Assembly (NCBI RefSeq): GCF_009914755.1
Contig: NC_060928.1
Reading direction: 5' to 3' (one strand)
Source of the DNA: the human T2T-CHM13v2.0 reference genome, Homo sapiens
DNA: 64,000 bases
Of this stretch, positions 25,552 to 60,259 are shown piece by piece. The stretch's first letter is position 1. Every line of letters begins with the position of its first letter. The translations under genes and the position numbers were made by a program. Under the pieces are notes generated by a model. The model was not told the DNA's origin and made no database searches. It saw only the letters and a program-made list of their open reading frames with translations.

Positions 25552-25986
<435 letters not shown>

Positions 25987-26796: not shown

Positions 26797-26809
26797 ATTC
26801 TATTTCACT

Positions 26810-33182: not shown

Positions 33183-33824
33183 ATGAGGCAGTCGATCTTC
33201 CTCCTACTGGCTTTTCACATGTTGCTGTGTGTCTGTGTGAGGTCATTTATTGAGCACCAAATGTGCCAAATATGCATCATGACTATGCGTCTAGCACAAG
33301 ACGGTGACGATCGCAAACATGTCATGATAGTTGCCGAAGGTGCTGTGGACAAACATCACTCCCTTCCCTCCACGTTAGAGACAAGATGGGAAAGAGAAGT
33401 GGGGAGAAATTGTTCATATCCACAAAAAGACGTCCTTCACTAAAGAGCACTGGCTCAGCCCTTGAATGCTGAGAAACTAAAAACAGAGAAAGGTTAAGGA
33501 CACAGGAAACAGGGATGACGAATAGCTCCTTACATTTTCTAATAACTCAGGGTATTGCAGGTGGCCAGAGCCAACCCAAATCATCACATCCAAACATGGG
33601 ACAAGGCAAAACCTGAAACTGTTAAGAGACATGCAGCGTCAGTTTGATTCCCGCTGCGGACGAGGGGCAGCCTGCACATGCTGAGGATGGACCCCGACCC
33701 TCCTGTTGCTAGCAGGCTGAGGGCAATGCCATCTCTATGCTACCTTGTGTCAGGTCACCACAGTGTCCCCAGCATCTGAATGCTGAGTGCAACCAAGGCT
33801 TTAGTTCAGCAACGTGAAACACCA

Positions 33825-34034
33825 GCTGCACTCCACACCCCAGCACCCCCACGCTGCATCCCACACCCCGGCACCCCCACGCTGCACTCCACACCCCGGC
33901 ACTCACACGCCGCACTCCACACCCCGGCACCCCCACGCTGCACTCCACACCCCGCCTCTCACACGCTGCATCCCACACCCCGGCACCCCCACGCTGCACT
34001 CCACACCCCGGCACTCCCACGCTGCATCCCACCC
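33825..34034 (+). repeat. C-rich minisatellite, 28-bp unit, ~7 copies
   Basis: Unit gctgca(ct/tc)ccacaccccggcacccccac. Confidence 0.95.
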
Positions 34035-34299
34035 TAGGAAAGCACAAGGAAATCATGTGAGCACCACAGGGGCCAATTTGTGCTGCATCTTCTCCAGCAT
34101 TCCAGTCAACAGACACTGAGCAGTAGACAGGAAAGAATTCCTCAAGCTGAGTTCAACAGGAATCCCTTCCTTGAGAATATGTACCAGACCACAGGATTAT
34201 TTTAGAAAGCATTAATCCTAGGAACATGTAATTGGGGTGATTCCTAACAGACTAGGAGTTATAAATAGAGCACAGACATATTTGGTCTATAAATAAAAT

Positions 34300-34472
34300 T
34301 CTTTTAACTGATGTTTTATTGTGGTAAGATATACATGACTAAAATGTGCCATTTTAATGATTTTCAAATGTACAACTCAGTGGCATTAAATTCATTCCCA
34401 TTGTTGTGCAGCCATCACCAATATCCACTCCAGCACTTTTCATCATCCCACACTGAAACGCTGTACCTTTCA
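34300..34472 (-). mobile_element. L1MB-type 3' end, left part of an element split by L1PB
   Basis: ttttattgtggtaagatatacatgactaaaatgtgccattttaa..tgttgtgcagccatcacca; continues at 41837. Confidence 0.8.
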
Positions 34473-37278: not shown

Positions 37279-37664
<386 letters not shown>

Positions 37665-38115
37665 CTAAGGTAACCAAGTGGAAAAAGATATTCCACACAA
37701 ATGGATACCAAAAGTGAGTAGAAGTATCCATTCTTGTATCAGACAGAAAAGACTTTAAATCAGCAACAGTTAAATAGTGATCAAAAACTAGTCCAACAGG
37801 AGAAAAATCACAGTCCTAAATACATATGCACCTAACACTGGAGCTCCAAAATTTATAGAACAATTATCATGAGACCTAAGAAATTAGATAGACAGCAACA
37901 CTATAATAGTGGGCACTTCAGTACTCCACTGACCACTAGAAAGGCCATAAATACAGGTCAACAAAGAAACAATGGAAAACTACACCCTAGAACAAATGGA
38001 CTTAACAGATGTTTATAGAACATTCTATCCGACAACTGCTGAATATACGTTCTTCTCCTCAGCACATGGAACATTCTCCAAAATAGACTATATGATAGGC
38101 CACTAAATGTGTCTC

Positions 38116-38427
38116 GGCCGGGTGTGGTGGCTCACACCTGTAATCCCAGCACTTTGGGAGGCCAAGGCAGACATATCACCTGAGGTCAAGAGTTTGAGAC
38201 CAGCCTGGCCAACATGGCAAAACCCTGTCTCTACTAAAAATACAAAAACAATTAGCTGGGCATAGTGGCATGCACCTGTAGTCCCAGCTACTAGGGAAGG
38301 TGAGGCAGAAGAATCACTTGAACCTGGGAGGAGGAAGTTTCAGTGAGCTGAGATCATGCCACTGCACTCCAGCCTGGGCAACAAGAGTGAGACTCCATCT
38401 AAAAAAAAAAAAAAAAAAAAAAAAAAA
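38116..38427 (+). mobile_element. AluS, inserted in L1 ORF2
   Basis: ggccgggtgtggtggctcacacctgtaatcccagc... with long poly-A; short TSD tgtctc. Confidence 0.94.
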
Positions 38428-41400
38428 CCATGTCTCAATTAATTTAAGAAAATTGAAATTATGTAAAATACTCTCTCTCAGACCACAGTGGAATAAAATT
38501 ACAAATTAACTGTCAAAGGAGCCATCAAAACTATACAAATACATGGAAACTAAATAATCTGTTCCAGAATGATCCTTGGGTTAAATAAAATAAAGATGGA
38601 AATTAAAAAACATATTTGAACTGAACAAAAATAGTGACACAGCCAATCAAAATCTCTGGGACACAGCAAAAGCGGTGCTAAGAGGAGAGTTCATAGCATT
38701 GAATGCCTACATCAAAGAGTCTGAAAGAGCACAAATAAACAACCCAAGGTCACACCTCAAGGAACTAGAGAAGCAAGAACAGACCAAACCCAAATCCAGC
38801 AGAAAAAAAGAAATAACCAGGATCACAGTAGAACTAAATAAAATTGAAACAAGCAAACAAAAACAATACAAAAGATAAATTAAGCAAAAAGCTGGTTCTT
38901 TTTGCATAAACAAAAGTGAGATACTATTAGCAAGATTAATCAAGAGAAAAAGAGAGGAGATCCAAGTAAACTCAATTAGAAATGAAATGGGAGATGTTAA
39001 ACTAATACCACAGAAATACAAAAGATCATTCAAGGCTACTATGAACACCTTTATGTCCACAAACTAGAAAACCTAAAAGATTTGGATAAATTATTGGAAA
39101 TATATAATCCTCCTAGATTAAACCAGAAAAAAATAGAAACTCTGAACAGACCAATAACAAGTAGCAAGATTAAAACAGCAATAAAAAAACTGCCAGCAAC
39201 AACAAGTCCAGGAGCAGCTGGATTCTATCAGACATTCAAAGAAGAATTGGTACCAATCCTACTGAAACTATTCCAAAAGATAGAGAAAGAGGGAATCCTC
39301 CCTAAATCATTCTATGAAGCCAGAATTACCCTAATACCAAAACCAGGAAAAGATATAACAAAAAAAAGAAAACTACAAACCAATATCCCTGATGAACATA
39401 GATGTGAAAATCCTCCACAAAATACTATCTAACTCAATTCAACAGCATATCAAAAAGATAATCCACCATGATCAAGTGTGTTTGATAACAGGGATACAGG
39501 GATGGTTTAACATATGCAAGTCAACAAATGTGATACAGCACATAAACAGAAGTAAAATCAAAAGTCATATGATCACCTCAATAGATGCAGAAAAAGCATT
39601 TGATGAAATCCAGCATCCCTTTATGATTAAAACCCTCAGCAAAACAGCATAGAGGGACATACCTTAAGGTAATAAAAGCCATTTATGACAAATCCACAGC
39701 CAACATCATACTGAATGGGAAAAGCTCAAAGAATTTTCTCTAATCAGTGGAACAAAACAAGGATGCCCACTTTCACCACTTGTATTCAACATAGTACTGA
39801 AAGTCTTAGCCAGAGCAATTAGACAAGAGAGGTAAATAAAAGGCATCCAAATCAGTAATGAGAAAGTCAAACTGTTGCTAATGCCACTGACATGACGGTA
39901 TACTTAGAAAACCCTAAAGACTCATCCCAAAAGCTCATAGATCTAATAAACGAATTCAGTAAAGTTTCAGGTACAAAATTAATGTACACAAATCAGTAGC
40001 ACTGCTATACACCAACAATGACCAAGCTTAGAATCAAATAAAGAATTCAATGTCTTTTACAACAGCTACAAAGAAGTAAAATACTTAAGAATATACCCAA
40101 CCAAAAATGTGAAAAATCTCTACAAGGAAAACTACAAAACACTGCTGAAAGAAATCACAGACAACACAAACAAATGGAAACACATCCTATGCTCATGGAT
40201 GGGTAGAATCAATATTGTGAAAAGGATAATTCTGCTGAAAGCAATTTATAAATTCAATGCAATTCCCATCAAAATACCATCATCATTTTTCACAGAACTA
40301 GAAAAAACAATCCTAAAATTCATATGGAACCAAAAAAGAGCCCATATGGCCAAAGCAAGATTAAATAAGCAAAAAGAACGAATCTGGAGGCATCACATTA
40401 TCTCACTTCAAGCTATACTACAAGGCTATAGCTACCAAAACAGCACAGAACTGATGAAAAAATAAGCACATAGACCAATAAAACAGAATAGAGAACTCAG
40501 AAATAAAGCCAAATACTTATGATCAACTGATCTTCCACAAAGCAAACAAAACATAAAATGGAGAAAGGATCCCCTATTAACACATGCTGCTGGGATAATT
40601 GGCAAGCCACATGTACAGGAATGAAACTAAATCCTCATCTCTCACCTTATACAAAATCAACTCAAAATGGATCAAAGACTTAAATCTAAGACCTGAAACC
40701 ATAAAAATTCTAGAAGATAACACTGGAAAAACTCTTCTAGACATTGGCCTAGGCAAAAAGTTAATGATCAAGAACTCAAAAGCAAATGCAATAAAAACAA
40801 AGATAAACCGATGAGACTTAATTAAAGTAAAAACCTTCTGCAAATCAAAAGAAATAATCATCATAGTAAACAGTCAATGCACAGAGTGGGAGAAAAGATT
40901 CGCAAACTACAAACTATGTATCCAATAGAGGACTAATATTCATAATCTACAAGAAACTCAAACAAATCAACAAGATAAAAACAAACACATCAAAAAGTGA
41001 GCTAAGGCCATGAACAGACAATTCTCAAAAGAAGATATACTAATGGCCATCAAACATATAAAGAAATGCACAACATCACTAATTATCATGGAAATGCAAA
41101 TCAAAACCACAATGCAATACCACCTTTCTCCTGCAAAAATGGCCATAATTTTAAAAATCAAAAAATTATAGACGTTGGTATGGATGTTGTGAAAAGGGAA
41201 CACTTTTACACTGCTTGTAGAAACGTAAACTAGTATAACTACTATGAAAAACAGTATGGAAATTCCTTAAAGAACTAAAAGTAGAACTTCCGTTTGATCC
41301 AGCAATCCCACTTGTGAGTATCTACCCAGACGAAAAGAAGTCATTCTATGAAAAAGACACTTGCACACACATTTATAGCAGCACAGTTTAACAGTTGCAA

Positions 41401-41836
41401 AAATAAGGAACCAGCCCAAATGCCCATCAATCAATAGTGGATAAAGAAAATGTGGTGTATATATATACCATGGAATATTACTCAGCCATAAAAATGAATG
41501 AAATAATGGTATTTGCAGCAACCTTGATGGAGTTGGAGATCACTATTCTAACTGATGTAACTCAGGAATGGAAAACCAAACATCGTATGTTCTGACTTAT
41601 AAGTGGAAGCTATGCTATGGGGACGCAAAGGCGTAAGAATGACATAATGGACTCTGGGACTTGAGGAGAAGTGGGTGATAAGGGACAAAAGGCTATACAT
41701 TGGGTACAGTGTACACTGCTTGGGTGATGGGTGCACCAAAATCTCATAATCACCACTCAAGAACTTATCCATGTAACGAAACACCACCTGCTTTCTCAAA
41801 ACTATTGAAATAATAATAATTAAAAAAAAAAAACCT

Positions 41837-42450
41837 CTGTACCTTTCAAACAATAATTCTCCATTCTGCCTTCCCCCAGCCCCTGGCAACCATCATTCTG
41901 CTTTCTGTCCCCATGAATCTTACTAAGTATATTGTATGAGGGGAATCACAGAATATTTGTCATTTTGTGACTGACTTATTTCACTTAGCATAACATCTTC
42001 AAGGTTTATCCATGTTGTAGTATGTCTCAGAATTTCATTGCCTCTTAATGCTGATTAATATTTCATTGTATGTATGTAGCACATTTTGCTTATCTATTCT
42101 TCCACTGATGGATCTTTGGGTTGCTTCCACGTTTTAGCTGTTGCAAGTAATGCTGCTATGGACATGGGTATACACACATTTGTTTAGGTCCCTACTTTCA
42201 ATTCTTTTGGATATATCCCCAGAAGTGAAAATGCTGAATGACAAGATATATCTATTTTCAATTTCTTGAAGAACCTCCAAACTGTTTTCCATTGCTACTG
42301 TACCATTTTACATTCCACCAGCAGTGTCAAGGGTTCAAATATCTGTTTTTGTTTTTGTTTTCTAGTAGTAGCCAAACTAATGGCTAGAAAGTGGTACATT
42401 GTTGCAGTTTTGATATGCATCCCTATTAATTAGTGATATTGGGCACAGGC
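41837..42450 (-). mobile_element. L1MB-type fragment, right part
   Basis: ccccagcccctggcaaccatcattctgctttctgtc..gacttatttcacttagcataa..cattccaccagcagtg; colinear with 34300-34472. Confidence 0.85.
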
Positions 42451-42619
42451 ACATTTTTAAAAACATACAATCAATAAAATTGTTAGGTCATGGGGATTGA
42501 AAGTGGTCAGTTTTTCTGGGTAATATTTATTGCTCTTCAAAGTGATTTGCATTTACAAGAATTGTTAACACATAACAAGCATCCTAGATTTGTTTTAAGA
42601 AAGAAGGGACTTTACAATT

Positions 42620-44180
42620 TTTCACTTTTAGTTAACTTTGAAATACTAAGATTTATAGAAAAGTTGTAAGGATAGTATAAAGGGTTCCAGTAAGCCTTCC
42701 ACCCAGTCTCCCCTAATTGTAGCGTGTTATATAACCATGACACATTTATCAAAACTAAGAAATCAACATTGCTACACTATTGACTAAACTATGGACTTTA
42801 TTTGTCTTTTTGCCAGTTTTTCCAATAATACCCTTTTCCTATTCAAGGATCCAATCCAGAATACCACGTTGCATTCATCTGTTATGTCTTCTTAGTCTCT
42901 GCCAATCCGTGACAGCGTCGCTGTCTTCCCTTGTTACTCATGAACTTGACACTTTTGAAGAGTATTAGTCAGGTATTTTGTAGAATGCTCCTCAGTTGCT
43001 GATGTTTTCTCATGATTGGACTGGCATTCTGGATTTGGGGGTAAGGTAACACAGTGGTGACGTCCTTCTCGTTGCATCATTTCCGGGGATGCTTGACATC
43101 AACACTACTTATCATTGGTGATGCTCACCTCCATCACTTGGATAAGGCCAAATCTTTCAGATTTTTTCGCTGTAGGGTCACTATTTTTACTTTTCCAAAA
43201 CTCTATTTATTACAAGCAAGGCACTAAATCCAGCTTACTTTCATAAGGAGGGAAATTAAACTCCACCTGCTGGAGGAAAAAGTATGAAAGAATTTGTGGA
43301 TATATGTTAAATTCAGTACAGTAATTAATAAATCTTTGGGCACAGATATTTGAGGTTATGCAAATATCCTGTTTCTTCCTTATGTTTCAGACACTAATTT
43401 CAGCAGTCTTCCATGAATCTTCCCTATGGCGACTATTACTGTGGTATTCTAGTGGTGTATTAGTCCATTCTTACACTGCTAATAAAGACATATGGGAGAC
43501 TGGGTAATTTATAAAGAAAAAGATGTTTAATGGACTCACAGTTCCACAGGACTGGGGAGGCCTCACAATCATGGCGGAAGGCAAAGATAGAGCAAAGGCA
43601 CATCTTGTATGGTGGTAAGCAAGAGAGCATGTGGAGGGGAACTGCCCTTTATAAACCATCAGATCTCATGAGATTTATTCACTATCACCAGAACAGCATG
43701 GGAAAAAATCAGAGCCATTATTCAATTACCTCCCACTGGGTACCTCCCAGGTCAGGTGGGGATTATGGGAGCTACAATTCAAGACAAGATTTGAGTGGGG
43801 ACACAGCCAAACCACATCAAGTGGTGTCTTCCATTTCCCTCATTTCTTTTATGTTTACTATTTGGAAATCTTCCACAAGGAAGATTTTTTTCACTTCTCC
43901 TTCAATTATTTATGTATGTAACCATTTATTTTTATCAGTATAAACTCACTGATATTTACTTTTTTCTTTGGGTTATAACTCAGTAGTATTTTTATTAATT
44001 TTGTTGTTCAAAGTTTTCCAGCTTTGGCCACTGGGAGCTCTTTCAGGTTGGCTGCATGTTGCTTTGTCAGGCCTGTTCCCTGACCCCTTACTTTCTGGCA
44101 ACACAAGGTCCTCCAGGTTCATCATGCATTTTCCCTTCCCTAGCCCTTGAGTCAGGCAGTTCTCCAGGGAGTCCTAGTTC
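42620..44180 (-). mobile_element. old L1 (L1MD/ME) 3' UTR, interrupted by a THE1 LTR
   Basis: agatttatagaaaagttgtaaggatagtata..ggatccaatccagaataccacgttgcatt..ttctggcaacacaaggtcctccaggttcatc. Confidence 0.7.
43456..43819 (-). mobile_element. THE1 MaLR solo LTR
   Basis: tgtattagtccatt...ggacacagccaaaccacatca; TSD agtgg on both sides. Confidence 0.93.
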
Positions 44181-44239
44181 AACAGGGACAACTTTTCAAA
44201 TCAACTTCCATGTGTTGCTATGTATAATTTTCAGATTAT

Positions 44240-44561
44240 TTCTTTTCTTTTTTTTTTTTTGAGATGGAGTCTCGCTCTTTCGCCCAGGCCAGAGTGCAGT
44301 GGCACGATCTCCGCTCACTGCAAGCTCTGCCTACTAGGTTCATGCCATTCTCCTGTCTCAGCCTCCTGAGTAGCTGGGACTACAGGCACCCGCCACCACG
44401 CCTGGCTAATTTTTTTTTTTTTTTTTTTTTTTTTTGTATTTTTAGTAGAGACGGGGTTTCACTGTGTTAGCCAGGATGGTCTCCATCTCCTGACCTTGTG
44501 ATCCGCCCGTCTTGGCCTCCCAAAGTGCTGGGATTACAGGCATGAGCCACCACGCCCGGCC
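44240..44561 (-). mobile_element. AluY with expanded middle A-tract
   Basis: Diagnostic ctgcaagctc, atgccattctcc and tgttagccaggatggtctc; TSD aattttcagattat at 44226-44239 and 44562-44575. Confidence 0.93.
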
Positions 44562-45136
44562 AATTTTCAGATTATCTCTATGCTATAATTAATGCTATAA
44601 TTAACTATAGATTTTCCATAATTAAGTCATATGTATTACAGCACTCAGACTAACAGGCTGCAGTAAGAAGGAACATGAACCTATCACCAATGCTTTACCC
44701 TTCTTTCTCTAGCACTCACCTGGTAATCTCTGTGGGCCCAACTGGCTCTAAGATTCTATGATTCTATAATGAAAAGACAAAAGGCAAAAGATGTTCCCAT
44801 AAGGGACATTTCTTTGAATCAGAAAATTGTTTCATTTTGCCAAAAATAAATTTAAGCCCTAGTTGACCTCCATTTTGCCTTTTCTATCCTTCCTGTAGTT
44901 TAATCCTATTCCTTCCATTTTATTATCAATTTTGAAATGAAAATTTAAATTTGTTTTGCTTGATCAAATTATGATATAAATAAAGTAATAAAAATACAAA
45001 ACAATAAATTACACTTACTTATAAAGTCTACAGCTTCTTGAAATTAACATATTATAATCTACTGCTGCTGAAATCTTTAGTCATCAAACAGTTTAAACAC
45101 TAGAGTAGTGGTTCTTGACAGAGGGGACTTTGCCCC

Positions 45137-47407
45137 GATATGGATTGGCTGTGCCCCCATGCAAATCTTATCTTGAATTGTAGCTTCCACAATTCCCACA
45201 TGTTGTGGGAGGGATCAAGTAGGAGGTAATTGAATCACGGGGAAAGGCTTTTCCCATGCTCTTCTCATGATAATTAATAAGTCTCATGAGACATAATGGT
45301 TTTGTAAGGGAGAACTCTTTTCACTTAGTTCCCATTCTCTCTTACTGCTGCCATGTAAGAAGTACTTTTCACCTTCCACCATGATTGTGAGGCCTCCCTA
45401 GCCACATGGAACTGTGAGTTTATTAAACCTATTTTCTCTCCAGTCTCAGGTATGTCTTTATCAGCAGTGTGAAAATGAACTAATACAGTAAATTGGTACC
45501 AGTGGACTGGGGCATTGCTGAAAAGATACCCAAAAATGTGAAAGCAACTTTGGAACTGGCTAACAGGCATAGGTTGAAACTGTTTGGAGGGCTCAGAAGA
45601 AGACAGAAAATATAGGAATATTTGGAACTCCCTAGTAAAGACTTTTAAATGGCTTTGAGCAAAATGCTGATAATGATATGGGCAATGAAATCCGGGCTGA
45701 GGTGGTCTCAGATGGAGAGGAGGAATTTGTTGGGAACTGGAGCAAAGGTGACTCTTGCTATATTTTAGCAAAGATACTGGCAGCATTTTGCCCCTGACCT
45801 AGAGATTTGTGGAACTTTGAACTTGAGAGAGATGATTTAGGGTATTTGGCAGAAGAAATTTCTAAACAGCAAAGCATTCAAGGTGTGACTTGGGTGCTGT
45901 TAAAAGTGTTCAGTTTTAAAAGGGAAACAGAGCATAAAAGTTTGACAAATTTGCAGCCTGACAATGTGATAGAAATTAAAATCCCATTTTCTAAGGAGAA
46001 ATTCAAGTTGGCTGCATAAATTTTCATAATTAATGAGGAGCTGAATGTTAATCACCAAGACAATGGGGGAAATGTCTCCAGGGCATGTCAGAGACCTTTG
46101 TGGTAGCTCCTCCCACCACAGGCCCAGAGGCCTAGGAGGAAAAAATGGTTTCATTGGCCGGGACCAGAGTCTCTCTGCTGTGTGCAGTCTAAGGACTGTG
46201 TTCCAGTTGCTCCATCCATGACTAAAAGGAGTCAAGGTACAGCTTGGGCCATGGCTTCAGAAAGTGCAAGTTCCAAGCCTTGGCAGCTTCCATGTGGTGT
46301 TGAGCCTGCAGGTGCAAAGGAGTCAAGAATTGAGGTTTGGGAACCTCTGCCTAGTTTTCAGAAGATATTATGGAAACATCTGGATGTCCAGGCAGAAGTT
46401 TGTTGCAGCAGTGGGGCCCTCATGGAGAACCTCTGCCAGGGCAGTGAAGAAGAGAAATGTAGGGTGGGGACCCCCACAGACTCCCCACTAGTGTGCTGCC
46501 TAGTGAAGCTGTAAGAAGAGAGCCACCATCCTCCAGACCCCAGAATGGTAGATCCACTGACAGCTTGCACAATGCACCTGGAAAAGCCACAGACACTCAA
46601 TACCAGCCCATGAAAGCAGCTGGGAGGGAGGCAGTATCCTCCAAAGCCACAGGGGCAGAGCTGCCTGAGATCACGGGAACCCATCTCTTGCATCAGCATG
46701 ACCCAGATGTGAGACATGGAGTCAAAAGATATCATTTTGGAGCTTTAAAATTTGACTGCCCTGCTGCATTTTGGACTTGCATGGGGCCTGTAGCCCCTTG
46801 GTTTTGGCCAATTTCTCCCATTTGTAACAGCTGTATTTACCCAATACATGTACCTACATTGTATCTAGAAAGTAATTAACTTGCTTTTGATTTTATGGGC
46901 TCATAGGCAGAGGGGACTTGCCTTGTCTCAGATGAGACATTGGACTGTAAGCTTTTGAATTAATGCTGAAATGGGTTAACAATTTGGGGTTCTACTGGGA
47001 AGGCATGATTGGTTTTGAAATGTGAGGACATGAGATTTGCGAGGGGCCAGGGATAGAATGATATGGTTTGGCTGTGTTCCCACACAAATCTCATCTTGAA
47101 TTGTAGCTCCCACAATTCCAACATGTTGTGGGAGGGACCCAGTGGGGGGTAACTGAATCATGGGGGCACGTATTTCCTGTGCTGCTCTTGTGACAGTAAG
47201 TCTTACAAGATATGATGGTTTTATAAGGGGAAACCCCTTTCAGTCAGTTCTCATTCTCTCTTGCTGCTGCCATGTAAGAAGTGCCTGTTTCCTTCTGCCA
47301 TGATTGTGAGGCCTCCCAAGCCACGTGGAATTGGGAGTCCATTAAACCTATTTTTCTTCCCAATCTCAGGTATATCTTTATCAGCAGTGTGAAAATGGAC
47401 CAATAGA
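45137..47407 (+). mobile_element. complete THE1 (THE1A-like) retroelement: LTR 45137-45487, internal 45488-47058, LTR 47059-47407
   Basis: Two homologous LTRs. The internal region starts gtaaattggtaccag and ends in a purine tract gaggggccagggatagaa. Flanked by gcccc and inserted in a MER20. Confidence 0.95.
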
Positions 47408-47595
47408 GCCCCCAAGGGAAACTTGTCAATCTCTAGAGACATTTATGGTTGTGGCATCCTGGAGGGATACTACTGGCATCTAGCAGGGACAGTCCTGAAA
47501 TGCTGCTAAGCGTCTTATAATATATCAGAGCCCACCACACCAAAGAATTATCCAGCCCAAAAGCCAGTAGTCTCAAGACTGGTAAATTATGGTCT
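47408..47595. mobile_element. MER20 remainder (left part at ~45103-45136)
   Basis: caatctctagagacattt..ctactggcatctag..atgctgctaa..caaagaattatccagcccaaaa. Confidence 0.7.
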
Positions 47596-48364
47596 AAAGG
47601 GACTTTTAATTTTCTAATTGGCTAGCTGGCTAAGTAACAGATATTTTCCTCCAAAATGCTTAAGGAAAATGATTAGCAAATTCCAAGGACTACTGCCACT
47701 AAAATGTTGAGTACAATAAAGAATTGCCTGGAAGAATCAGATGATAGAATACTTAGGATCCACTGTAGCTATACAGTGCCAAGAAAGCAAAGACACAGTT
47801 AGACTCATGTTACATCTTAACTTATTCCATTTTGAATAAGTGACTTATCTGACACAGCAAGGGTCAAATGCATCTGAAAAATACACTGTTAAATGCATGA
47901 ATTATCAGTAAGTTAGCACTTTAAACAAACACACTGATGGTCTGTTGGCTAACATGATATGGTTCTAGTGTGATGTAGGTAAGTGAATTTGGGGCCAGGA
48001 GATAGAATCTAGGAGTGTAGTCATGGCTCCATCTCTTGCTGACTGAGTGACTCTAGCTAGGTCATATGGCTTACCTGGGCTTCAGTTTCTGCATCTGATA
48101 AACGTGAACGCTTATATATGTCTGTTTTATCTACCTCACTGGTCATTGTGAGAATTCTTTTTTTAAGTACACTTTCTCTTTATTTGAGTATTGATATATT
48201 CTCATATTTTTTTATACTCCTCATATATGGTTTTGGAAATAACAATGTATTTGGAAGACCAAGGAAAAGTAGATTCCTCCAGGGAGGAGGCTTCACACCC
48301 CCATGTAGAGACATGATTGGGCTCCTATAATTAACTAACTTCTCTCCTCTCATATGTCTCATTA

Positions 48365-49497
48365 GAGTGTAAAAATAGATTTTTAAAAGTATCATAGACA
48401 AGCCACAGACTTGTAGAAAATATTTTCAAAATGCATATCTGATAAAAAATGTGTATCTAAAATGTACAAAGAACTCTTAAAATTCAACAATAAGAAAACA
48501 AGCAACCCAGTTAAATAATGTAAAAAAACCTGAACAGACCCCTCACCAAAGAAGGTAAACAGATGCCAAATAAGGATATGAAAAAATGCTCAATATTGTT
48601 TGTCAACAGAGAATTGCAACTTAAAATGACAACAAAGTACCACTACATAACTATTGTAATTTTTGAACTGGAACAATTTGAGCAATAAAATAAATAGAAT
48701 AATATATAATTTTAACTCAAAGTACCAAATAAATATCCATGAGTCCATACTGTTACTAATAGATAATTGAATAAATATTTAAATGGGGGATATGAGACAA
48801 ATTATGCATAAGAATTCTAAATAATTTGTCTGGATACTCCACCCTCAGGAGGTGGAGCAAAACTTCTCACTCATTAAGTGTGGGCTGCACAAAGTGGCCT
48901 CCTTCTAAAGAGTGCACTATGGAAAGAGAAAACCTAACAAACACCACCTTGGCCAAGGTGAACAAGGTCACCATAAATAGTGATTAGTCATGTTGACAGT
49001 ATGTACCCTTCAGACGATGTGATGATGATGGCACCTTACCTCTGTGGTTCTCCTCCCCAAAAGCCATGACCCCAGTCTAATCATGAGAATAACAACATAA
49101 AGATTTCAGTACGGGGCATCCTACTGTACCCCTGATCAGTGCTCTTCCAAACCTGCAAGGTCATACAAAGCAGAAAATGTCCCAGCAACTGCCTCAGCCA
49201 GAGGAACCTCAGGAGACTTGACAGCTAAATGTTTCTTGGGATCTTGAATGAGATCCCAGAACAGAAAAGGACACTCAGTGAAAACCACATAAATGTAAGT
49301 AAAATATAGGCTTTAAGTAATAAAAATATATCAATATTGGTACATGAATAATAATAAATGCACTAATATAATATATATAATATTGTAAGACGTTAATGAT
49401 AAACACAGCCGAGGGTGGACGTGAACTCTGTGTACTCTAAGTTCACAATATTTCTGTAGATATGCAAATCTCCTAAAACAAAGTTTATTTTAAAAAC
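48365..49497 (+). mobile_element. L1MC/MD fragment
   Basis: gacaagccacagacttgtagaaaatattttcaaaatgcatatctgataaa..; 3' UTR ggatactccaccctcaggaggtggagc; ends aaaacaaagtttattttaaaa. Confidence 0.8.
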
Positions 49498-49827
49498 AAT
49501 ATTATTATAATGATTGATGAAAAACATTGTGAGAGAGCAGTCGTGGTTTAAACTGTTATTGCACTTTGTGAGCATTTGGTTTTTCTAACAGAAGATGGAA
49601 CTAGAAGACACACCTTTAGATTTGCTCAGTAGTTTACCCTGGGGCAGCTGGTACCACCCCTCTGTCATTAGCCATTTAGGAAAGCTAGGAGAAAAGTGTC
49701 ATTGTTTAATTACATGTCAGAGGACAATGAGCGTCACAGAGTGCATGTGGAGTATGTTGGAAAATGTTTCCTTCCACACAGTGAGCCTGATATATCTCTC
49801 TAATAAAGGGCAAATGGAGAAGGACTT

Positions 49828-50010
49828 CCATCCCTGTCACTGAGTATGTACCACCAGGGCTGTCAGCTGTGGACCATCCCCATCACTGAGTATAGGCCAC
49901 TAGTGTTGTCAGCTGTGGACCATCCCTGTCACTGAGTATGGGCCACCAGGTTTTGTCAGCTGTGGACCATCCCTGTCACTGAGTATGGGCCACCAGGGTT
50001 GTCATCTGTG
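49828..50010 (+). repeat. tandem repeat, 46-bp unit x4
   Basis: ccatccctgtcactgagtatg..ccaccagg..tgtcagctgtgga at 49828, 49874, 49920 and 49967. Confidence 0.92.
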
Positions 50011-50544
50011 AATGGAAACCATTCATCTCTCCAGGACGCTGGAGCCCTAGTGAAGTGAATGTGCTCATATGAAGACTCACACAAGTATAAAATGTTTAGG
50101 CTTCTTGGGGATGAGGCTGGCTATGGCCACTGGCTGGAAAACAGGGTGTGTTTTCCTACCATCCTTCCCTCTTTCTCTATTCCATTCATATCAGCCTCAG
50201 ACTTTCTGAAAAAAAAAAAAAAAAAAAAAACCCACAATAAAATTAGTTCTTCATGTAGAGCCCAGAGCAGTTTGGTTTTGTATCCAGGATTCCTGTAAAG
50301 ATAATATATTTCTCCCCTAAGTTTCACCTTAGAATGTCTCTTCTCGAACCATAGCAATTTCCCTCTCAGCTAAACAGAAGATTTTCCCAACTAGAAAATC
50401 ACCAGACATGCTGTTTCCAGGATGACTTACTTTGAATGCTCAGTGCATTTGAAACTGAACTCCCATGGATAGGAAAGGGGTATGGAGCCGTCATTACATA
50501 GCAAATCTTGAAAACGTCAAGATCATTGAACTAAAAAACTTCAA

Positions 50545-50904
<360 letters not shown>

Positions 50905-52499
50905 CTACATTAATACAAATGACAGATTATAACCATATATAAATATCCCAATTAAAACAAACAAATGACTAAAACAGGTGGCAGTGTTAATTGCCGATCT
51001 CTCTGTGGTCCACATTCTGTTTCATTCCTTTAGAACGTCACTACCTACCCCTCGATCTGCAATGCTAGTAAAAGGACTTTCATGTCTGTGCACTTTAAGC
51101 GTTTTGGGGATGGCATCACAGGAGCAGAAGAGGCCATGGGAAAAGAAACTTTGAATGCAGGGAGCATATTGAGGTAGTCAGTGTGTTCTGCTGCTTGATC
51201 CTGACACCGGGCTATTGAAATTGAAGATGGAAAACCCGTATTGAGTCATTTGGCTCTCTCCCTTGAGGGCAGTAGATTATGCTGGACAGTATTTTATTTA
51301 GCACCCTGTCCATTTCTATTTTAACTTGCTCTTCCTTGGAGGCCTATTAACTCAAACCCAGCAAGGATTTTATTACAAATGGAAGGCATTCTACTAGTTG
51401 GTCATTTCTTCCACAAAACACACATTCTCCTGCTGAGATATTAAAAAACAAAATTTACCAAACAACATGAAAACAGTGCTGGATTGTAGAAGGAGCAATA
51501 AGCGGATTGTCGCAAACTGGCTCCAGACGCTCACTCTGACTTGCCTGAAACACATGCTCACTGAGAATCCTCAACACTGGGTCCCTGGAAATAGGGACCA
51601 TGTGACACTAAGCGACCTGTAGCACTGATATCCTCATAGCCCCTTTTCCCCACAGGTCCCACGATACCCAGGTTCTGGGCAGTTAGTGTTCCCAGGCAAT
51701 TCTCATAAACAGCTACACCACATGCAGACTGCTTGGTACTGAGGAAATCTCATTCAACATCGACAAGTTTGCTTTCAGGCTTGCCCTTTGTAAAAGTCAG
51801 AGTGGCCCCAGTGGAATGCAAGTCCATGCTACTGGTCAGAAAAATATCTTGGTCCTCGTGTTTTCTCTATGGCAAAGATGAGAGGATGAGGGACACTGGG
51901 CTTTTCTCCTCCCGGGTTCTGTAAGCTTCTGCCTTCCTAAAAAGGCTGATTCCCTAACTCATGCCATTCTCCAACCTGGTGCATGAAAGACAGTGTCCCA
52001 GATGGCATCTTCCTTGAACAACGAAGAACGAGGACTTCTGGAGCCAAAAGCTGGGTTAAATATGTGCTCTGATGTTCATTCGCTACAGGAGCCTCGGGTT
52101 CCGCATCTGTCAACTAGAAATAACACCCTTGCCTTAGGCAGGGGCTGTGGTAACGTGCTGTGGGTACATAGTGACGGTCAGAACAGTAAAGAAATGCAAT
52201 CAGTGGTAGCTACTACTGTTGGCATAATTACGAACAGCAGGAGGATGAACAGACACCCCCTGAAAACTTAGGAACATTATTTTTAAATCACATGTAGTGT
52301 GAAAAGTACACAGTTTGGTTTGTTATACAGAAACAAGAGGTTTAAATCCATGGAGTAGAAGATAACGATAATGCACTGATTGCTGGTTATGAAAGTCAGG
52401 AAGAAAATAACCAAGTTCAGTGCTCATCTTGATCTAAGACCATTCATGGCCTGACCTCTCTAATGCGCAGAGGATAAAACCCGGGAGTGCATGATGCTC

Positions 52500-54972
52500 A
52501 CCAAGGATCAGTCAGAATTTCTCCAAGGATCAGCTCCCAAATCAACCAAAACTTCTCCAAGGTTCAGCTCCCAAATCAACCAGAACTTCTCTAAGGATCA
52601 GCTCCCAAATCAACCAGAACTTCTCCAAGGTTCAGCTCCCAAATCAACCAGAACTTCTCCAGGGATCAGCTCCCAAATCAACCAGAAATTCTCCAAGGAT
52701 CAGCTCCCAAATTAGCCAGAACTTCTCCAGGGATCAGCCCCCAAATCAACCAAAACTTCTCCAAGGATCAGCCCCAAATCAACCAAAATTTCTCCAAGGA
52801 TCAGCTCCCGAATCAACCAAAACTTCTCCAAGGATCAGCCACCAAATCAACCAGAACTTCTCCAAGGTTCAGCTCCCAAATCAACCAGAACTTCTCCAAG
52901 GATCAGCCCCCAAATCAGCCAGAACTTCTCCAGGGATCAGCCCCCAAATCAGTCAGAACTTCTCCAAGGATCAGCTTCCAAATCAACCAGAACTTCTCCA
53001 AGGATCAGCTCCCAAATCAACCAGAACTTCTCCAAGGTTCAGCTTCCAAATCAACCAGAACTTCTCCAAGGATCAGCCCCCAAATCAGCCAGAACTTCTC
53101 CAGGGATCAGCCCCCAAATCACCCAGAACTTCTCCAAGGATCAGCTCCCAAATTAGTCAGAACTTCTCCAAGGATCAGCTTCCAAATCAACCACAACTTC
53201 TTCAGGGATCAGCCCCCAAATCAGCCAGAACTTCTCCAAGGATCAGCTACCAAATCAGTCAGAACTTCTCCAGGGATCAGCTCCCAAATCAGCCAGAACT
53301 TCTCCAAGGATCAGCTCCCAAATCAACCAGAACTTCTCCAAGGATCAGCTCCCAAATCAACCAGAACTTCTCCATGCATCGGCTCCCAAATTAATCAGAA
53401 CTTCTCCAAGGATCAGCCCCCAAATCAACCAGAACTTCTCCAGGGATCAGCCCCCAAATCAGCCAGCACTTCTCCAGGGATCAGCTCCCAAATCAACCAG
53501 AACTTCTCCAAGGATTAGCTCCCAAATCAACCAGAACTTCTCCAAGATTCAGCTCCCAAATCAGTCAGAACTTCTCCGAGAATCAGCTCCCAAATCAACC
53601 AGAACTTCTCCAAGATTCAGCTCCCAAATCAGTCAGAACTTCTCCAAGGATCAGCTCCCAAATCAGTCAGAACTTCTCCAAGGATGAGCCCCCAAATCAA
53701 CCAGAACTTCTCCAAGGTTCAGCTCCCACATCAGTCAGAACTTCTCCAAGGTTCAGCCCCCAAGTCACCCGGAACTTCTCCAAGTTTCAGCTCCCAAATC
53801 AGTCAGAACTTCTCCAAGGATCAGCCCCCAAATCAACCAGAACTTCTCCAAGTTTCAGCTCCCAAATCAGTCAGAACTTCTCCAAGGATCAGCCCCCAAA
53901 TCAACCAGAACTTCTCCAAGGATCAGCTCCCAAATCAACCAGAACTTTTCCAAGTTTCAGCTCCCAAATCAGTCAGAACTTCTCCAAGGATCAGCCCCCA
54001 AATCACCTGGAACTTCTCCAAGGATCAGCCCCCAAATCAACCAGAACTTCTCCAAGGTTCAGCCCCCAATTCACCCAGAACTTCTCCAATGGTCAGCCCC
54101 CAAATCAACCAGAACTTCTCCAAGGTTCAGCTCCCAAATCAACCAGAACTTCTCCAAGGTTCAGCTCCCACATCAGTCAGAACTTCTCCAAGGTTCAGCC
54201 CCCAAGTCACCCGGAACTTCTCCAAGGATCAGCCCCCAAATCAACCATAACTTCTCCAAGTTTCAGCTCCCAAATCAGTCAGAACTTCTCCAAGGATCAG
54301 CCCCCAAATCACCCGGAACTTCTCCAAGGATCAGCCCCCAAGTCAACCAGAACTTCTCCAAGGTTCAGCTCCCAAATCAGCCAGAACTTCCCCAAGGTTC
54401 AGCCCCCAAATCACCCAGAACTTCTCCAATGATCAGCCCCCAAATCAACCAGAACTTCTCCAAGTTTCAGCTCCCAAATCAACCAGAACTTCTCCAAGGA
54501 TCAGCTCCCAAATCAACCAGAACTTCTCCAAGGATCAGCTCCCAAATCAACCAGAACTTCTCCAAGGATCAGCTCCCAAATCAACCAGAACTTCTCCAAG
54601 GATCAGCTCGCAAATCAGCCAGAACTTCTCCAAGGATCAGCTCCCAAGTCAGCCAGAACTTCTCCAAGGATCAGCCCCCAAATCAGCCAGAACTTCTCCA
54701 AGGTTCAGCTCCCAAATCATTCAGAACTTCTCCAAGGATCAGCTCCCAAATCAACCAGAACTTCTCCAAGGTTCAGCTCCCAAATCAGTCAGAACTTCTC
54801 CAAGGATCAGCCCCCAAATCAGTCAGAACTTCTCCCAGGATCAGCTCCCAAATCAACCAGTACTTCTCCAAGGATCAGCTCCCAAATCAACCAGACCTTC
54901 TCCAGGGATCAGTTCCCAAATCAGCCAGAAATTCTCCAGGGATCAGCTCCCAAATCAGCCAGAACTTCTCCC
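52500..54972 (+). repeat. large minisatellite, 34-bp unit, ~72 copies
   Basis: Unit ccaagg(a/t)tcagc(t/c)cccaaatca(acc/gtc/gcc)agaacttct over about 2.47 kb. Confidence 0.98.
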
Positions 54973-55103
54973 AGGGTGGGAGATCTTTTGATCTCATGCA
55001 GTCCCTTCATAGTGCTCAGCATTTTACCCAGAAAAGCATCAGTCACCCGTAAAGGCTAAGTTTTAAACACTGTAAAACCAGAAAATGTTATATACACGAC
55101 TGT

Positions 55104-55168
55104 GTGAGGCGTGAACGTGGGGAAGTGAGTGTGAAAGTGCATGAATGTGAGCATTCAAGAAGGCATGA
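55104..55168 (-). promoter_or_regulatory. YCAY cluster (candidate NOVA splicing enhancer)
   Basis: Eight YCAY tetramers in 65 nt on the minus strand, about 105-170 nt downstream of the 24-nt exon candidate. Confidence 0.4.
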
Positions 55169-55272
55169 GTGTGCGAGGGAACCCCACCAACAAAGCAAGC
55201 AAGAGGACCTGGCCTCTTTCTATTTGCGACAACCCTTAATGGGGCTCAGAGATTTCCCACTGCGTTCCTTAC

Positions 55273-55296
55273 CCTCTTAGTGCTGCACACCGGCCT
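55273..55296 (-). CDS. candidate 24-nt microexon (x-GRCAALR-G in phase 2 or RPVCSTKR in phase 0)
   Basis: Minus strand reads cctctatttcttttccttgcttatggctttgtag|AGGCCGGTGTGCAGCACTAAGAGG|gtaagg: long pyrimidine tract with TGC, GTAAG donor and a downstream YCAY cluster. Confidence 0.45.
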
Positions 55297-55439
55297 CTAC
55301 AAAGCCATAAGCAAGGAAAAGAAATAGAGGATCGTGAGTTTAAACAGTTCAGAATAAATTGGTATTGGGTGTTAAGGGCTTAAATTCCACTATCTATGTT
55401 TACCGTATCTTAAGTTGAATCAAAACAAAATCCAACAAC

Positions 55440-55990
55440 ACAATGTTACAAGATGTTGCTGCCTAGAAACAACCGAAAGCTGGATTAGAGGGTCATAAAT
55501 TAAGGATTGGGTACATTGTAACTAATTAAATACATACAAAAGAAAAGCAGATTTGGTAATATCATTTCAGGCTATGTAGTATTTAAAGTCTCTTATTGAG
55601 TTAAAAGAGCATCATATTATTTTAAATTGGTAAGCTAATAATAAAGATATGACATGAATAAACTTTAATATACCAAATAAAAAAGCCCCAAAGTATATAT
55701 ATATAAAACAAAAAACAGACAGACGTATGGCTGCAGCTGATAAATTTTTAACTCACCATTATCAACATACAGCAGATACCATATTCAAAAATGAAACAAA
55801 ATAAGAACTGAAAAAAATAAGTAATAAAATTAATGTGGTGGAACTAATAGAATATGCCAAACTTTTTATCTGAAAGTTAGAAATCTCATCCTCTTTCATA
55901 CCTTCTGTCCATATACAATCACCAACTGTGAAAACAAAATTATCATCCTATTTCCAGAAATTATTAAGACAAAAAGCTGATAAAAATATT
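55440..55990 (+). mobile_element. ancient L1M ORF2 (endonuclease region) remnant
   Basis: A-rich degenerate similarity: aaaagaaaagcagatttggtaatatcatttcagg..aataaactttaatataccaaataa..ttttaactcaccattatcaa. Confidence 0.45.
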
Positions 55991-57271
55991 TAGCCAAACG
56001 AAGCATTAGAATACCAAATTATAGGGATGTGCATGATGACTTAACTGTTTCTTGCACGTTTTGCTGGGCGCTGTAATTCAGATAGTTTGTGTTTTAACTT
56101 TTACAATCTTCTAGTCTGCAATAATAATTTTATAGTTTGCTGTGGAACTGCACCAAATCCATAAAATCTGCAAAAGTCCTCAAAATTCCACATATGTGGG
56201 TTGTCATTGGCCCTAATAATTGTGCTCCAAGTTTTGCACTAAATTCTTCCACAAATTAGAAATGAAAACACCATGTGTTTCAGAGGAATGAATGAAAAAC
56301 ACCTACCAGGACACGGCTGAGCTAACACTCAGCACCTTCCAAAATTCTGCACTTGAGTCTTTTGTAAACAACCCTGCCTTTCAGTTCCTCAGTCAACACA
56401 TTAAATACACATCCTTTTCAGAAATTATTGTCTATATAGCTTATGAATCTAAAACCAGAACCATTTCACCAGGTTGGTGGGGATCTTTTCCATGTTTGCT
56501 GTGAATGGCAAAACCACATAACTCAATGGAACCACAGATGTGCAAATCTGGGTGGACAGCAGGGATGGCAGCCACCCTCAGTATGCAGATAGAGACCATG
56601 AAACTAATGTGGCTGTTAACTTGTCCCAGAAAGCAAACTCAAGGGGTTAGCAGCTGTTTTTGTTTCCTCTCTTTCTCTCTCTTCTTTTGCTGCTGACATT
56701 TGAAACATATATCTCACCATTGCTGACACCATCCCCCTCACCCCCACCAGTAGGAGTCAGTTCATTGCATGGACTGAGAGAGAGACATCTTGCCACCGGT
56801 TTCTTCTCTATCCAGATGTGATTTTTGCAGAGTAGCAGAGCACCGGAAGCTGGCTTCACCATAAAGGCTACTCTGCAGACTATTATCTTCCAGCATACAT
56901 GAGGGATAGCATATGGTATGAGGGTGGGCGTTCTAATGAGACAAATCAAAGACACCAATGGTTCACAGACTTCTCTAGGAGCAAAGTATTGCCCTATAGG
57001 ACACAAAGGAATTGATTTAAGAAACCCTTCAGAAAACTGGTATTGCTTTTATTTTCACTACAAAATAAATATTGAAGTAAATACAAAAAGATGTTCTCCA
57101 TAATGATGTATGAGAACCTGCATGAAATCAAGCCTGCATTCTGTGGCCACCACAAATTCAAGGCAAGCAGGACGCCACAAACTTCACCCTCCCACTCCCA
57201 AGTTTCTGCCAAATTAAGCCCCAAAGTTTAGGGACAGAAAGCAAAATATCCTAGATTCCTGTAACTCCTGG

Positions 57272-57576
57272 TTTGTTTTTTTTTTTGTTTTTTTTTTTTG
57301 AGACAGAGTCTTGCTCTCTTGCTCTCTCACCAGGCTGGAGTGCAGTCGCGTGACAGCAACCTCCACCTCCCAGGTTCAAGCTATTCTCCCGCCTCAGCCT
57401 CCTGAGTAGCTGGGACTACAGGCATGTGCCACCATGCCTGGCTAATTTTTGTATTTTTAGTAGAGACAGGGTTTCACCATGTTGGCCAGGATGGTCTCAA
57501 TGTCTTGACCTCATGATCCACCCACCTTGGCCTCCCAAAGTGCTGGGATTACAGGTGTGAACCACTGTGCCCAGCC
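57272..57576 (-). mobile_element. AluS (Sc-like)
   Basis: Poly-T then gagacagagtcttgctct..ggccaggatggtctcaatgtcttgacctcatgatcc; imperfect TSD cct(g/t)taactc. Confidence 0.93.
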
Positions 57577-57797
57577 CCTTTAACTCATTTTGAAATGATT
57601 CTCACATAACATATTCACATCAATATTTTCATAACCTAAGAAATTTCCATTGACCTAGTTTCCTTAATTAACTTGTGAGAAAAATTCTTATCATTGGATT
57701 TCTTTTAATTTTCAAAATATATAAATTGATGTGCAGATCGATACAAAATAACAATTTATGCTTGTTATAAACCCATCTCTGCTCAGAGTCCTGGAAA

Positions 57798-57913
57798 GGA
57801 CATCACAGTGGAAGGCCAAGTGGGCTGCAGGTGGCAGACACAGTTCCTCAGCCTGGACGTCACAGTGGAAGGCCAAGTGGGCTGCAGGCAGTGGACAGAG
57901 TTCCTCAGCCTGG
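57798..57913 (+). repeat. 57-bp tandem duplication
   Basis: ggac(a/g)tcacagtggaaggccaagtgggctgcagg..agttcctcagcct twice. Confidence 0.9.
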
Positions 57914-60259
57914 TCAGTTGCTCCTGGGATGGTGGGTGAGTCAGAACATGTGTCTTTATTTGTCAAGTGGGGGTTAAGCCAGGCATTGTCTAAGGTGCCT
58001 CACAGAGTTAATATTCTTTGCTGTGAACTTGCTGCCAAATAGTTCATAGGACAGTTTTTATGTTCAGCCAATGGGTAGAAATGTAGCCCAAAGACCTACA
58101 ACATGGGGCAGGGAATCAGGGCAGGGGACCAGGGCAGGGATCCAGGGCAGGGAACCTGCTCTCCCTTGCTGATGGTCTTCACTGTCCTCCTCTCCTTCCT
58201 CCCACGTGTCGGGATCAGTGATGAAGTGGAGGCACCTTTCAGAGAATGTATCCAGGATCTCCTTCTCCTCTCCTTCAAAAAACAGAAAGCTCGATGTTGT
58301 CTTTTATCACATCTGGTATTTGAAAATTTATGTTCTGATGAGGCACTGTGCGCAGAAGCAGAACCCGCTGCATCCAATGGTATGCTGCTATGCTGACCTC
58401 GAAGTCACTCGCCTTGGACACAGGCCGTTAACTTGACATGGTGATTTATTCGCCAATAAGCACATCTCCCATATCACAGATCAGCGAGTGGAGTGTGCTG
58501 CAAATGGTGTGGTGGCCTTGAACCCCTGAGATATCCTAGAGACATGATGGATGGGCTGGCCTGGCCTGTTGTGACTGTGGTGAAGGCAAGGGAGGCAGGG
58601 GTCTGCACCTGCCCCTGGTACAACCTGCTGCCCCACAAGCACCCAAAGCCTGCTGCCGGCATCGTCTTCCTTTGCTCTGAATCTTAGTTGTTAAGCTTTC
58701 CCCCAGAGTAACAGGAGAGTTGCAGCCTGCGGGAAAAGGACAAGATGTGAATTCTGTTTCAGGAATTTGGCCTTAAAAACAATGATGCTTATTTGTGTAG
58801 CCCAAGAGAGGAGCTCATTGAACATAAGTCAGATGCCAGGGCTGATGTGGCCTCAGATAGTAATTCTTACCTCACTGCTGTTTCAGGCAGCCAGTTCTTA
58901 CATTTGCATCCATTAGTGGGAAGAGCATCTCATCTTTCATAGAAAAGGTCGAGTGACAGCACACAGTCAACCAGGCATTGCCTCAAGAGCTGTGAGACGG
59001 TGCTCTAGGGGCACTGAGCCTCGGTGACCTGCCTGGGAGCCTCATGTAGTCCTGGAAAATCACCAGCTCTGCAAATCTCAACCCAAACAGGAAACTCTCT
59101 GCCCCGAAGTAGCACAGACATAACTCTCGATACATACGTCGATTTATCTCCACATTATTATTATTATTTAATTTTTTGTAATACAGCCTTGTTTTGACTT
59201 ACAACTCCCAGAGACATCCTTTCAAGGTAATATAATTCTAGCTTTATTGCAGTTCAGATGAACATTCTTTTTTAAAGCTAAAATAATGTAAGTTGTATCA
59301 AGTACTAACACCATTCTTAGGGCTGACATGAATAATCAGATTTTCATTTTGTCCTACAATTTCATACATCCCTAGTCCATGCAAACACTTTAAAGCAACC
59401 ATTTTCTAGACATAAATGTGCTGCTATATGATGATGAGACTCTGCATGATTTCTGTCTTATTCTTTATGCTTTTCTGTATTTTCCCAGTTTTCTAAAATA
59501 TTAACAAAATTTGTTGTTAAAATTGTAACAACCTTTTGAAAGAACATGCATTTAAAAACAAAATTATAAATGGGACATTTATAATTATGTGGTACATTGT
59601 GATAAAGATGGTAGGCTCAGCTGGCCCTGTGTTTCTATGTTGTACATTCGAAGCACTCACAAGGTGCCCAGAGCGTCGCAAGGGCTCTGAGGCCCCTCAG
59701 ACAGCAGCCAAGTAAGAAAGTTTAATTCACTAATTACAGTAGGAAAAGCTGAATTACAGAACAAGTGATGATCTGCCTGAGATGCTCATGTAATAACCTA
59801 GAACATTCCTGGGGAAAGCTGGGCCTGACTCCCACTATTCTGCTCTCTCCACACATTCCTCCAAGACCTTCTACAGACCCTTTGAGAGCGTGGAAGTTTG
59901 GAGTGGGAAGCCACGCTGAAGACGCCTTAACGTCCCAACAGTTTTGTTTCTTAATAAATTGAAGACTTACTTCAACATAATCATGCAACCCACTGAAAGA
60001 CTTTTAAAAAGTTTTTTACAAAAAGAATTACTACATTTATCCTCGAGACACCAAACAAGAGCCTAACTAACATTTTCATTGAATTGGCGATTGGCTTGAG
60101 TTGTTTCCAAATTGACTTTATTTGTCCTTTGGAATCACATAGACACAACCTTAATCTAAAAGTCATTAGCAACTAAATTTAAGATTATTGACTTAGCTGC
60201 ATAGAAAACCAAAAACTTGACATCCTGATGGAAAACTTGCATTCAATTTTATAAGAAGA

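What the first reader, a model, noticed from the sequence alone, without database searches (positions are those of the whole stretch)
55104..55330. 24-nt microexon with an upstream UGC and a dense downstream YCAY cluster
Seen: ...ttcttttccttgcttatggctttgtag|AGGCCGGTGTGCAGCACTAAGAGG|gtaagg, then eight YCAY motifs in 65 nt about 105-170 nt into the downstream intron. Established: downstream YCAY clusters mark NOVA-enhanced exons. Two independent neural splicing signatures make this the best-supported exon candidate.
Basis: partly seen in the sequence, partly recalled or inferred. Interest (0 to 1): 0.7.

Follow-up and report, generated by a model that had tools for sequence, protein, structure and literature searches.

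The report
Microexon look-alike without a host gene
A 24-letter stretch of human chromosome 4 carries the sequence signals of a nerve-cell mini-exon, but it lies outside every annotated transcript and is likely a chance look-alike that is rarely or never spliced.

Summary
The motifs are real, on the minus strand: a 24-nt AG...GT unit at 55296-55273, UGC at -17, and eight YCAY at +105 to +169. I also found a branch-like CTCAC at -42, an 80-nt AG-free zone and an RBFOX motif at +273. The combination is rare per window (1 of 1,749 simulated windows), but about 30 to 1,400 chance look-alikes are expected genome-wide, or 3 to 140 with RBFOX. UGC is weak evidence (86 of 222 pyrimidine-rich acceptors), and the YCAY tract has the even-lag periodicity of a decayed CA-type repeat. 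No annotated transcript covers the site: it lies 2.07 kb past the annotated FRG1-DT end, beyond a poly(A) signal. The only other copies found are in a 97-98% duplication on chr13, 14 and 21, with no slowed divergence (6 substitutions versus mean 6.4; low power). Verdict: likely an unselected pseudo-exon (0.72). Inclusion in a read-through lncRNA is possible (0.2). RNA-seq and cross-species conservation could not be tested.

The parts
55273..55296 (-). 24-nt candidate microexon (no annotated host; one of three frames has a TAA stop)
   Evidence: four genomic copies within 3 mismatches
55297..55338 (-). Acceptor region: branch-like CTCAC at -42 (A at -39), pyrimidine tract, TGC at -17 (55313-55311), TAG; 80-nt AG-free zone
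   Evidence: branch point is a consensus match only
55267..55272 (-). Donor GTAAGG (AGG|GTAAGG, 7 of 9 consensus positions)
55104..55168 (-). YCAY cluster, 8 motifs in 65 nt; CA-rich tract with even-lag periodicity, likely a decayed microsatellite
   Evidence: no TRF array at score 30
54995..55000 (-).
   Evidence: present in all four copies; 393 of 4,100 random 300-nt windows have one
57048..57053 (-). AATAAA poly(A) signal between the annotated FRG1-DT end and the candidate, followed by U-rich sequence
   Evidence: use not shown
57370..58726 (-). Annotated last exon of lncRNA FRG1-DT, the nearest possible host; its annotated end lies inside an Alu about 70 nt before the A-tail
   Evidence: hub annotation
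1..56304 (.). Segment duplicated at about 97-98% on the short arms of chr13, chr14 (inverted) and chr21; contains the candidate
   Evidence: traced to window base 1 on chr21, to about 44500 on chr13 and 43700 on chr14 (limits of what was fetched)
52513..54975 (.). 34-bp VNTR, 72.5 copies, starting about 300 nt downstream of the candidate donor

Best explanation
This is likely an unselected pseudo-exon: chance splice signals lying next to a CA-rich tract that is likely a decayed microsatellite, about 2 kb past the annotated end of a non-coding RNA. Shown: the motifs, the absence of an annotated host, the four near-identical copies, neutral-looking divergence. Inferred: most FRG1-DT RNA would be cleaved at or before the poly(A) signal at 57053, so the unit would seldom sit inside an intron with an upstream donor and downstream acceptor; NOVA could bind the tract only in such RNA; no reading frame exists for the 24 nt to join.
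For: No annotated transcript covers 55104-55330 (hub table); AATAAA at 57053 lies between FRG1-DT and the site. Look-alikes are expected: 1 of 1,749 Markov-simulated windows, i.e. 28 genome-wide (95% range 0.7-155), or 470-1,370 from leave-one-out rates in 208 kb of real sequence; about a tenth of that with RBFOX. A strict 24-nt UGC architecture pattern has 110 genomic matches. TGC occurs at 86 of 222 pyrimidine-rich YAG sites. Tract autocorrelation is raised at lags 4, 8, 12, 16 (z 2.3-3.1) and lowered at 1, 3, 5. 6 substitutions in the 293-nt block versus mean 6.4 in 170 blocks. No parent gene: only 4 copies at up to 3 mismatches and in DNA searches up to E 10. No stop-free frame of 130 aa overlaps the exon. 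In mouse, spacing alone is the weakest predictor of Nova binding, and 841,501 genic YCAY clusters are predicted (PMC3737533 passages).
Against: The unit has nearly every textbook feature at once: distal branch-like site, long pyrimidine tract, UGC between them and the AG, long AG-free zone, fair donor, length 3n, YCAY cluster scoring 26 on the published scheme (reached by 0.39% of 6,380 windows, candidate included), no YCAY cluster in the exon or upstream, and an RBFOX motif. 0 of 5,000 shuffles of the first 250 intron bases match the cluster. The annotated FRG1-DT end sits inside an Alu and may not be the true end, and a predicted minus-strand lncRNA lies 39 kb further on. My null thresholds were set after seeing the candidate and rest on 5 events in 208 kb. 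The paralog test has little power at 2.2% divergence. TRF does not call the tract a repeat.
Confidence: 0.72

Rival explanations
1. It is a real, neuron-biased exon of an unannotated long isoform of FRG1-DT that skips or reads through the annotated last exon. SRRM3/4 would act at the UGC, NOVA at the YCAY tract and RBFOX at +273. It arose by chance and has no protein consequence.
For: Architecture matches SRRM4-responsive microexons (UGC in 74-79%, strong donor matters most; 10.1101/2024.09.17.613571 sections 10, 12; branch point median 45 nt, PMC12871342 passages). Same strand as FRG1-DT and LOC105377616. FRG1-DT end inside an Alu. Donors of 7-8 of 9 exist upstream and pyrimidine-rich acceptors downstream, e.g. 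51866 and 49799.
Against: No annotated or published isoform. Poly(A) signals at 58450, 57960, 57709, 57053, 55669 lie upstream. Only 2 of 8 YCAY are predicted more than 50% unpaired, and the branch-to-AG region is not more open than its surroundings (0.43 versus 0.50).
Confidence: 0.2
2. It is a selected, conserved neural microexon: part of a functional non-coding RNA or a relic of a lost or duplicated neural gene.
For: Joint presence of three regulator motifs; all are intact in all four copies.
Against: No parent copy found (these searches can miss old paralogs). Divergence not reduced. The exon itself carries 1-2 substitutions in the copies. No coding partner exons or long frame nearby.
Confidence: 0.04
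3. The unit is spliced only in the chr13/14/21 copies, in RNA started from the SST1-like CpG element or the SVA-like element that flank the duplication edge about 1 to 4 kb upstream.
For: All three copies share the same junction with an SVA-like element and an SST1-like monomer. SST1 hypomethylation is linked to transcription in cancer (PMC12657243 passage).
Against: The LINC01667 forward primer matches the element in the opposite direction, and the SVA-like element points away from the candidate. No transcript evidence.
Confidence: 0.04

Closest known systems
SRRM3/4-dependent neural microexons (3-27 nt)
   Same: 24 nt, multiple of three; UGC between pyrimidine tract and AG; branch-like site about 40 nt upstream; long AG-free zone; donor near consensus.
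   Different: No coding host gene, no inclusion evidence, no sign of constraint; predicted branch-to-AG region not especially open.
NOVA-enhanced cassette exons with a downstream intronic YCAY cluster
   Same: Dense YCAY cluster 105-169 nt downstream of the donor; none in the exon or upstream 200 nt.
   Different: Validated clusters are 94% conserved mouse to human (PMC2014790 passage) and flank annotated alternative exons; here conservation is untested and the tract looks repeat-derived.
Cryptic microexons / pseudo-exons (e.g. the cryptic class with and without UGC used as controls in 10.1101/2024.09.17.613571)
   Same: Good local splice signals with or without UGC and little expected inclusion.
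   Different: Those were seen at low level in RNA-seq inside genes; this one has no read support that I could examine.
4q35-derived segmental duplications in the chr13/14/21 pseudo-homologous region
   Same: Copies on 13, 14 (inverted) and 21, about 215 kb from the SST1-type arrays; HSA4-to-acrocentric duplication is described for FRG1 (10.64898/2025.12.22.696095 passages).
   Different: This piece is 2.2% diverged, so probably younger than the 25-27 Ma FRG1 event, and ends at an SVA-like element; that paper's text has no 'SVA' hit.

Membership tests
SRRM3/4-dependent neural microexon | Length 3-27 nt between AG and GT | tested here: met
   24 nt
SRRM3/4-dependent neural microexon | UGC between branch point and AG, distal branch point and pyrimidine tract | tested here: met
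   TGC at -17, CTCAC at -42, 76% pyrimidine, 80-nt AG-free zone; consensus matching only
SRRM3/4-dependent neural microexon | Strong 5' splice site | tested here: inconclusive
   7 of 9 consensus positions; duplex with U1 5' end -9.4 kcal/mol, mid-range among 9 local donors; MaxEntScan not available
SRRM3/4-dependent neural microexon | Internal exon of a transcribed, usually protein-coding, host | tested here: not met
   No annotated transcript over the site (hub table); 2,074 nt past FRG1-DT end; no long frame. Annotation of lncRNA isoforms may be incomplete.
SRRM3/4-dependent neural microexon | Neural inclusion that depends on SRRM3/4 | not testable with these tools
   No RNA-seq available
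SRRM3/4-dependent neural microexon | Conserved exon and intronic flanks in vertebrates | tested here: inconclusive
   No vertebrate genomes on hand; paralog divergence 6 versus mean 6.4 per 293 nt, low power
NOVA-enhanced exon | YCAY cluster in the proximal downstream intron scoring at least 0.6 | tested here: met
   Sum 26, log10 1.41 by the PMC2014790 scheme (log base assumed); 20% of random 200-nt windows also pass 0.6
NOVA-enhanced exon | Accessible (single-stranded) YCAY motifs | tested here: inconclusive
   Unpaired probability 0.13-0.81; 2 of 8 above 0.5
NOVA-enhanced exon | NOVA CLIP tags and loss of inclusion on Nova knockout | not testable with these tools
   No CLIP or knockout data available

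The most novel reading that the evidence does not exclude
A complete neural microexon code (SRRM4 UGC, NOVA cluster, RBFOX site) assembled by chance in non-coding DNA is switched on in neurons in a read-through FRG1-DT isoform, and was then copied to three acrocentric short arms: a neuron-specific microexon with no protein to alter, showing how such exons are born.
Probability: 0.15. Interest if true: 0.45.

Novelty: not a real feature. Interest (0 to 1): 0.15.

Why it matters
On the best reading it matters little: it shows that even a near-perfect set of neural splicing motifs turns up tens to hundreds of times by chance in a genome-wide scan. If neuronal inclusion were shown, it would be a natural test of whether the SRRM4/NOVA/RBFOX code is sufficient without selection, with four nearly identical copies in different chromatin settings as built-in controls.

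Tried and rejected
Parent gene elsewhere: pattern search with 3 mismatches and two DNA searches gave only the four duplicated copies. Coding context: 28 stop-free frames of 130 aa or more in the window, none over the exon. Structured RNA: folding z +0.62; Rfam finds only the U1 pseudogene. LINC01667 as host of the acrocentric copy: published primers do not match the duplicated segment. A second 24-nt unit at 55925-55902 as partner exon: weak pyrimidine tract (0.51), no UGC. The reversed-pattern control (7 versus 110) was not used as a null because reversing creates a CpG and many true hits share one repeat. The pattern (19 rows, 14 places) used an 80-110 nt gap that excludes the candidate itself, so it only shows that look-alike donor-plus-cluster spacing exists elsewhere. 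A larger real-sequence control set was not obtained, so the empirical null rests on 208 kb. Earlier scan notes were not available.

Full report
1. Observation. The quoted sequence is absent from the plus strand and present on the minus strand. The unit runs 55296 to 55273. TGC starts at -17. YCAY motifs start at +105, 123, 129, 139, 145, 153, 159 and 166, so the count and distances are right. I add a branch-like CTCAC at -42, an 80-nt stretch without AG, 76% pyrimidines and a TGCATG at +273. The three frames read RPVCSTKR, GRCAALR and a frame with a stop.

2. Is it more than chance? Locally yes: 0 of 5,000 dinucleotide shuffles of the first 250 intron bases reach 8 YCAY in 65 nt, and on the published cluster scheme (PMC2014790 section 9) it sums to 26, reached by 0.39% of 6,380 windows. 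But most of the density follows from CA-rich composition: shuffles of the tract that keep dinucleotides give a mean of 5.6 and reach 8 in 5.5%. The tract shows raised self-match at even lags and lowered at odd lags, as a decayed CA-type repeat would, although TRF does not call it. The window holds a second 8-motif cluster, and 28 of 100 block-shuffled windows hold one. UGC adds little: 86 of 222 pyrimidine-rich YAG sites have it.

3. Joint chance. With simple rules set at or below the candidate's values (YAG, at least 70% pyrimidine, AG-free for 30 nt, donor 7 of 9, 3-27 nt), the window has 6 pseudo-microexons, 5 with UGC, and 40 kb of chr21 control has 1 more. In 1,749 Markov-simulated windows, 1 had a UGC unit with a cluster of 8 and 6 had one of 7. 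Over 48,707 windows that is 28 (0.7-155) and 167. Leave-one-out rates from 208 kb of real sequence give 470-1,370. Requiring RBFOX within 300 nt (393 of 4,100 windows) cuts these tenfold, to about 3-140. A strict pattern for 24-nt units alone has 110 genomic matches; about a quarter of the 100 listed share one repeated sequence that I recall as antisense L1. So the site is unusual for one window but expected in a whole-genome scan. These nulls are rough and were tuned after seeing the candidate.

4. Host transcript. The hub annotation has nothing over the site. The nearest same-strand gene, lncRNA FRG1-DT, ends at 57370, 2,074 nt upstream; five AATAAA/ATTAAA signals lie upstream of the candidate, one at 57053 followed by U-rich sequence. 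The annotated end lies inside an Alu about 70 nt before its A-tail, so the true end is uncertain, and a predicted minus-strand lncRNA starts 39 kb further on. Read-through is therefore possible but unshown. No stop-free frame of 130 aa covers the exon. Searches for FRG1-DT (6 papers, listing seen; passages of PMC11451815 mention only an intronic variant), LINC01596 (7, listing only; the name is recalled as a neighbour), LOC105377616 (0) and the exon sequence (0) found no description of the exon. VastDB and paper supplements, including the novel micro-exon list of PMC4317164, were not seen. That paper's passages state that annotation of 22-51-nt internal exons of coding genes appears nearly complete and that flanks of symmetric alternative micro-exons are highly conserved.

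5. Relatives. The exon has four copies within 3 mismatches: chr4, chr13, chr21 and chr14; DNA searches agree but can miss old or repeat-like relatives. The chr21 copy matches the window from 56304 down to base 1 with 1,114 substitutions in 50,674 aligned non-VNTR bases, 2.2%. The 293-nt block holding acceptor, exon, donor and cluster has 6 substitutions against a mean of 6.4 in 170 blocks: no sign of constraint, but little power. All motifs are intact in the copies, with one UCAC changed to UCAU. The copies begin at a shared junction next to an element with hexamer, Alu-like, VNTR and poly(A) parts that I recognise from memory as an SVA, pointing away from the candidate. Beyond it is a CpG-rich element that matches a published LINC01667 primer with 2 mismatches; that primer matches about 70 sites exactly in 1.4-kb arrays on chr13, 14 and 21, which fits SST1 (PMC12657243 and 10.64898/2025.12.22.696095 passages). 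I infer that chr4 is the donor.

6. Mechanism. Most likely (0.72) the unit is an unselected pseudo-exon: RNA polymerase from the FRG1-DT promoter would be cleaved off before or near it, so it seldom lies in an intron. If a read-through isoform does cross it (0.2), the published rules predict neuron-biased inclusion: SRRM3/4 at the UGC with a fair donor (10.1101/2024.09.17.613571 passages and sections 10, 12), a distal branch point (PMC12871342 passages), and NOVA and RBFOX enhancing from downstream (PMC10987577 passages). Predicted accessibility is mixed. In mouse, YCAY spacing without conservation is the weakest predictor of Nova binding (PMC3737533 passages). A conserved functional exon (0.04) or use only in the acrocentric copies (0.04) has no direct support.

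7. Verdict. It works like a neural microexon on paper and fails the membership test on host transcript; inclusion and cross-species conservation were not testable. Observation confirmed, interpretation partly supported, interest low (0.15).

Noticed in passing
L007:8300-10000 and L008:1-421 (chr21 9,159,300-9,161,421); same on chr13 and chr14: The edge of the 4q35-derived duplication is an SST1-like monomer joined to an SVA-like element (names inferred or recalled) with about 200 extra bases and a second poly(A) at its 3' end; its hexamer end abuts chr4 sequence at window 56304 and no chr4 homology continues on the far side. It may record an SVA-associated rearrangement.
   Followed up: partly
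chr13 12.30-12.43 Mb, chr14 6.98 Mb, chr21 9.38-9.45 Mb: The LINC01667 qPCR forward primer used in two cancer papers matches about 70 sites exactly (216 within 2 mismatches) in 1.4-kb arrays, and the reverse primer has no exact genomic match; the assay may read SST1-derived RNA or span a junction.
   Followed up: no
window 57272-57583: The annotated 3' end of FRG1-DT (57370) lies inside an Alu about 70 nt before its A-tail; an AATAAA at 57053 may mark the true end.
   Followed up: partly
window 55925-55902 (-) and donor at 55756 (-): A second 24-nt AG...GT unit with weak pyrimidine tract and no UGC, and an 8-of-9 donor further down.
   Followed up: partly
window 34387-34456 (+): Second cluster of 8 YCAY in 65 nt; a 795-bp stretch nearby (about 34634-35427) is missing from the chr21 copy.
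   Followed up: no
window 52513-54975, 28271-29249, 33825-34034, 15211-15698: Large VNTRs (34, 35, 28 and 61 bp units); the 34-bp array has 72.5 copies on chr4 and is much shorter in the chr21 copy.
   Followed up: no
window about 43450-47400: A 2.3-kb interspersed repeat with 350-bp terminal repeats, 80-83% like many genomic copies, plus a lone inverted terminal repeat; looks like a MaLR-type LTR element (name recalled).
   Followed up: no
window 2502-2677 (-): U1 pseudogene RNU1-51P confirmed by Rfam (90.5 bits) with an intact 5' end; it is inside the duplicated segment, so acrocentric copies are expected.
   Followed up: no
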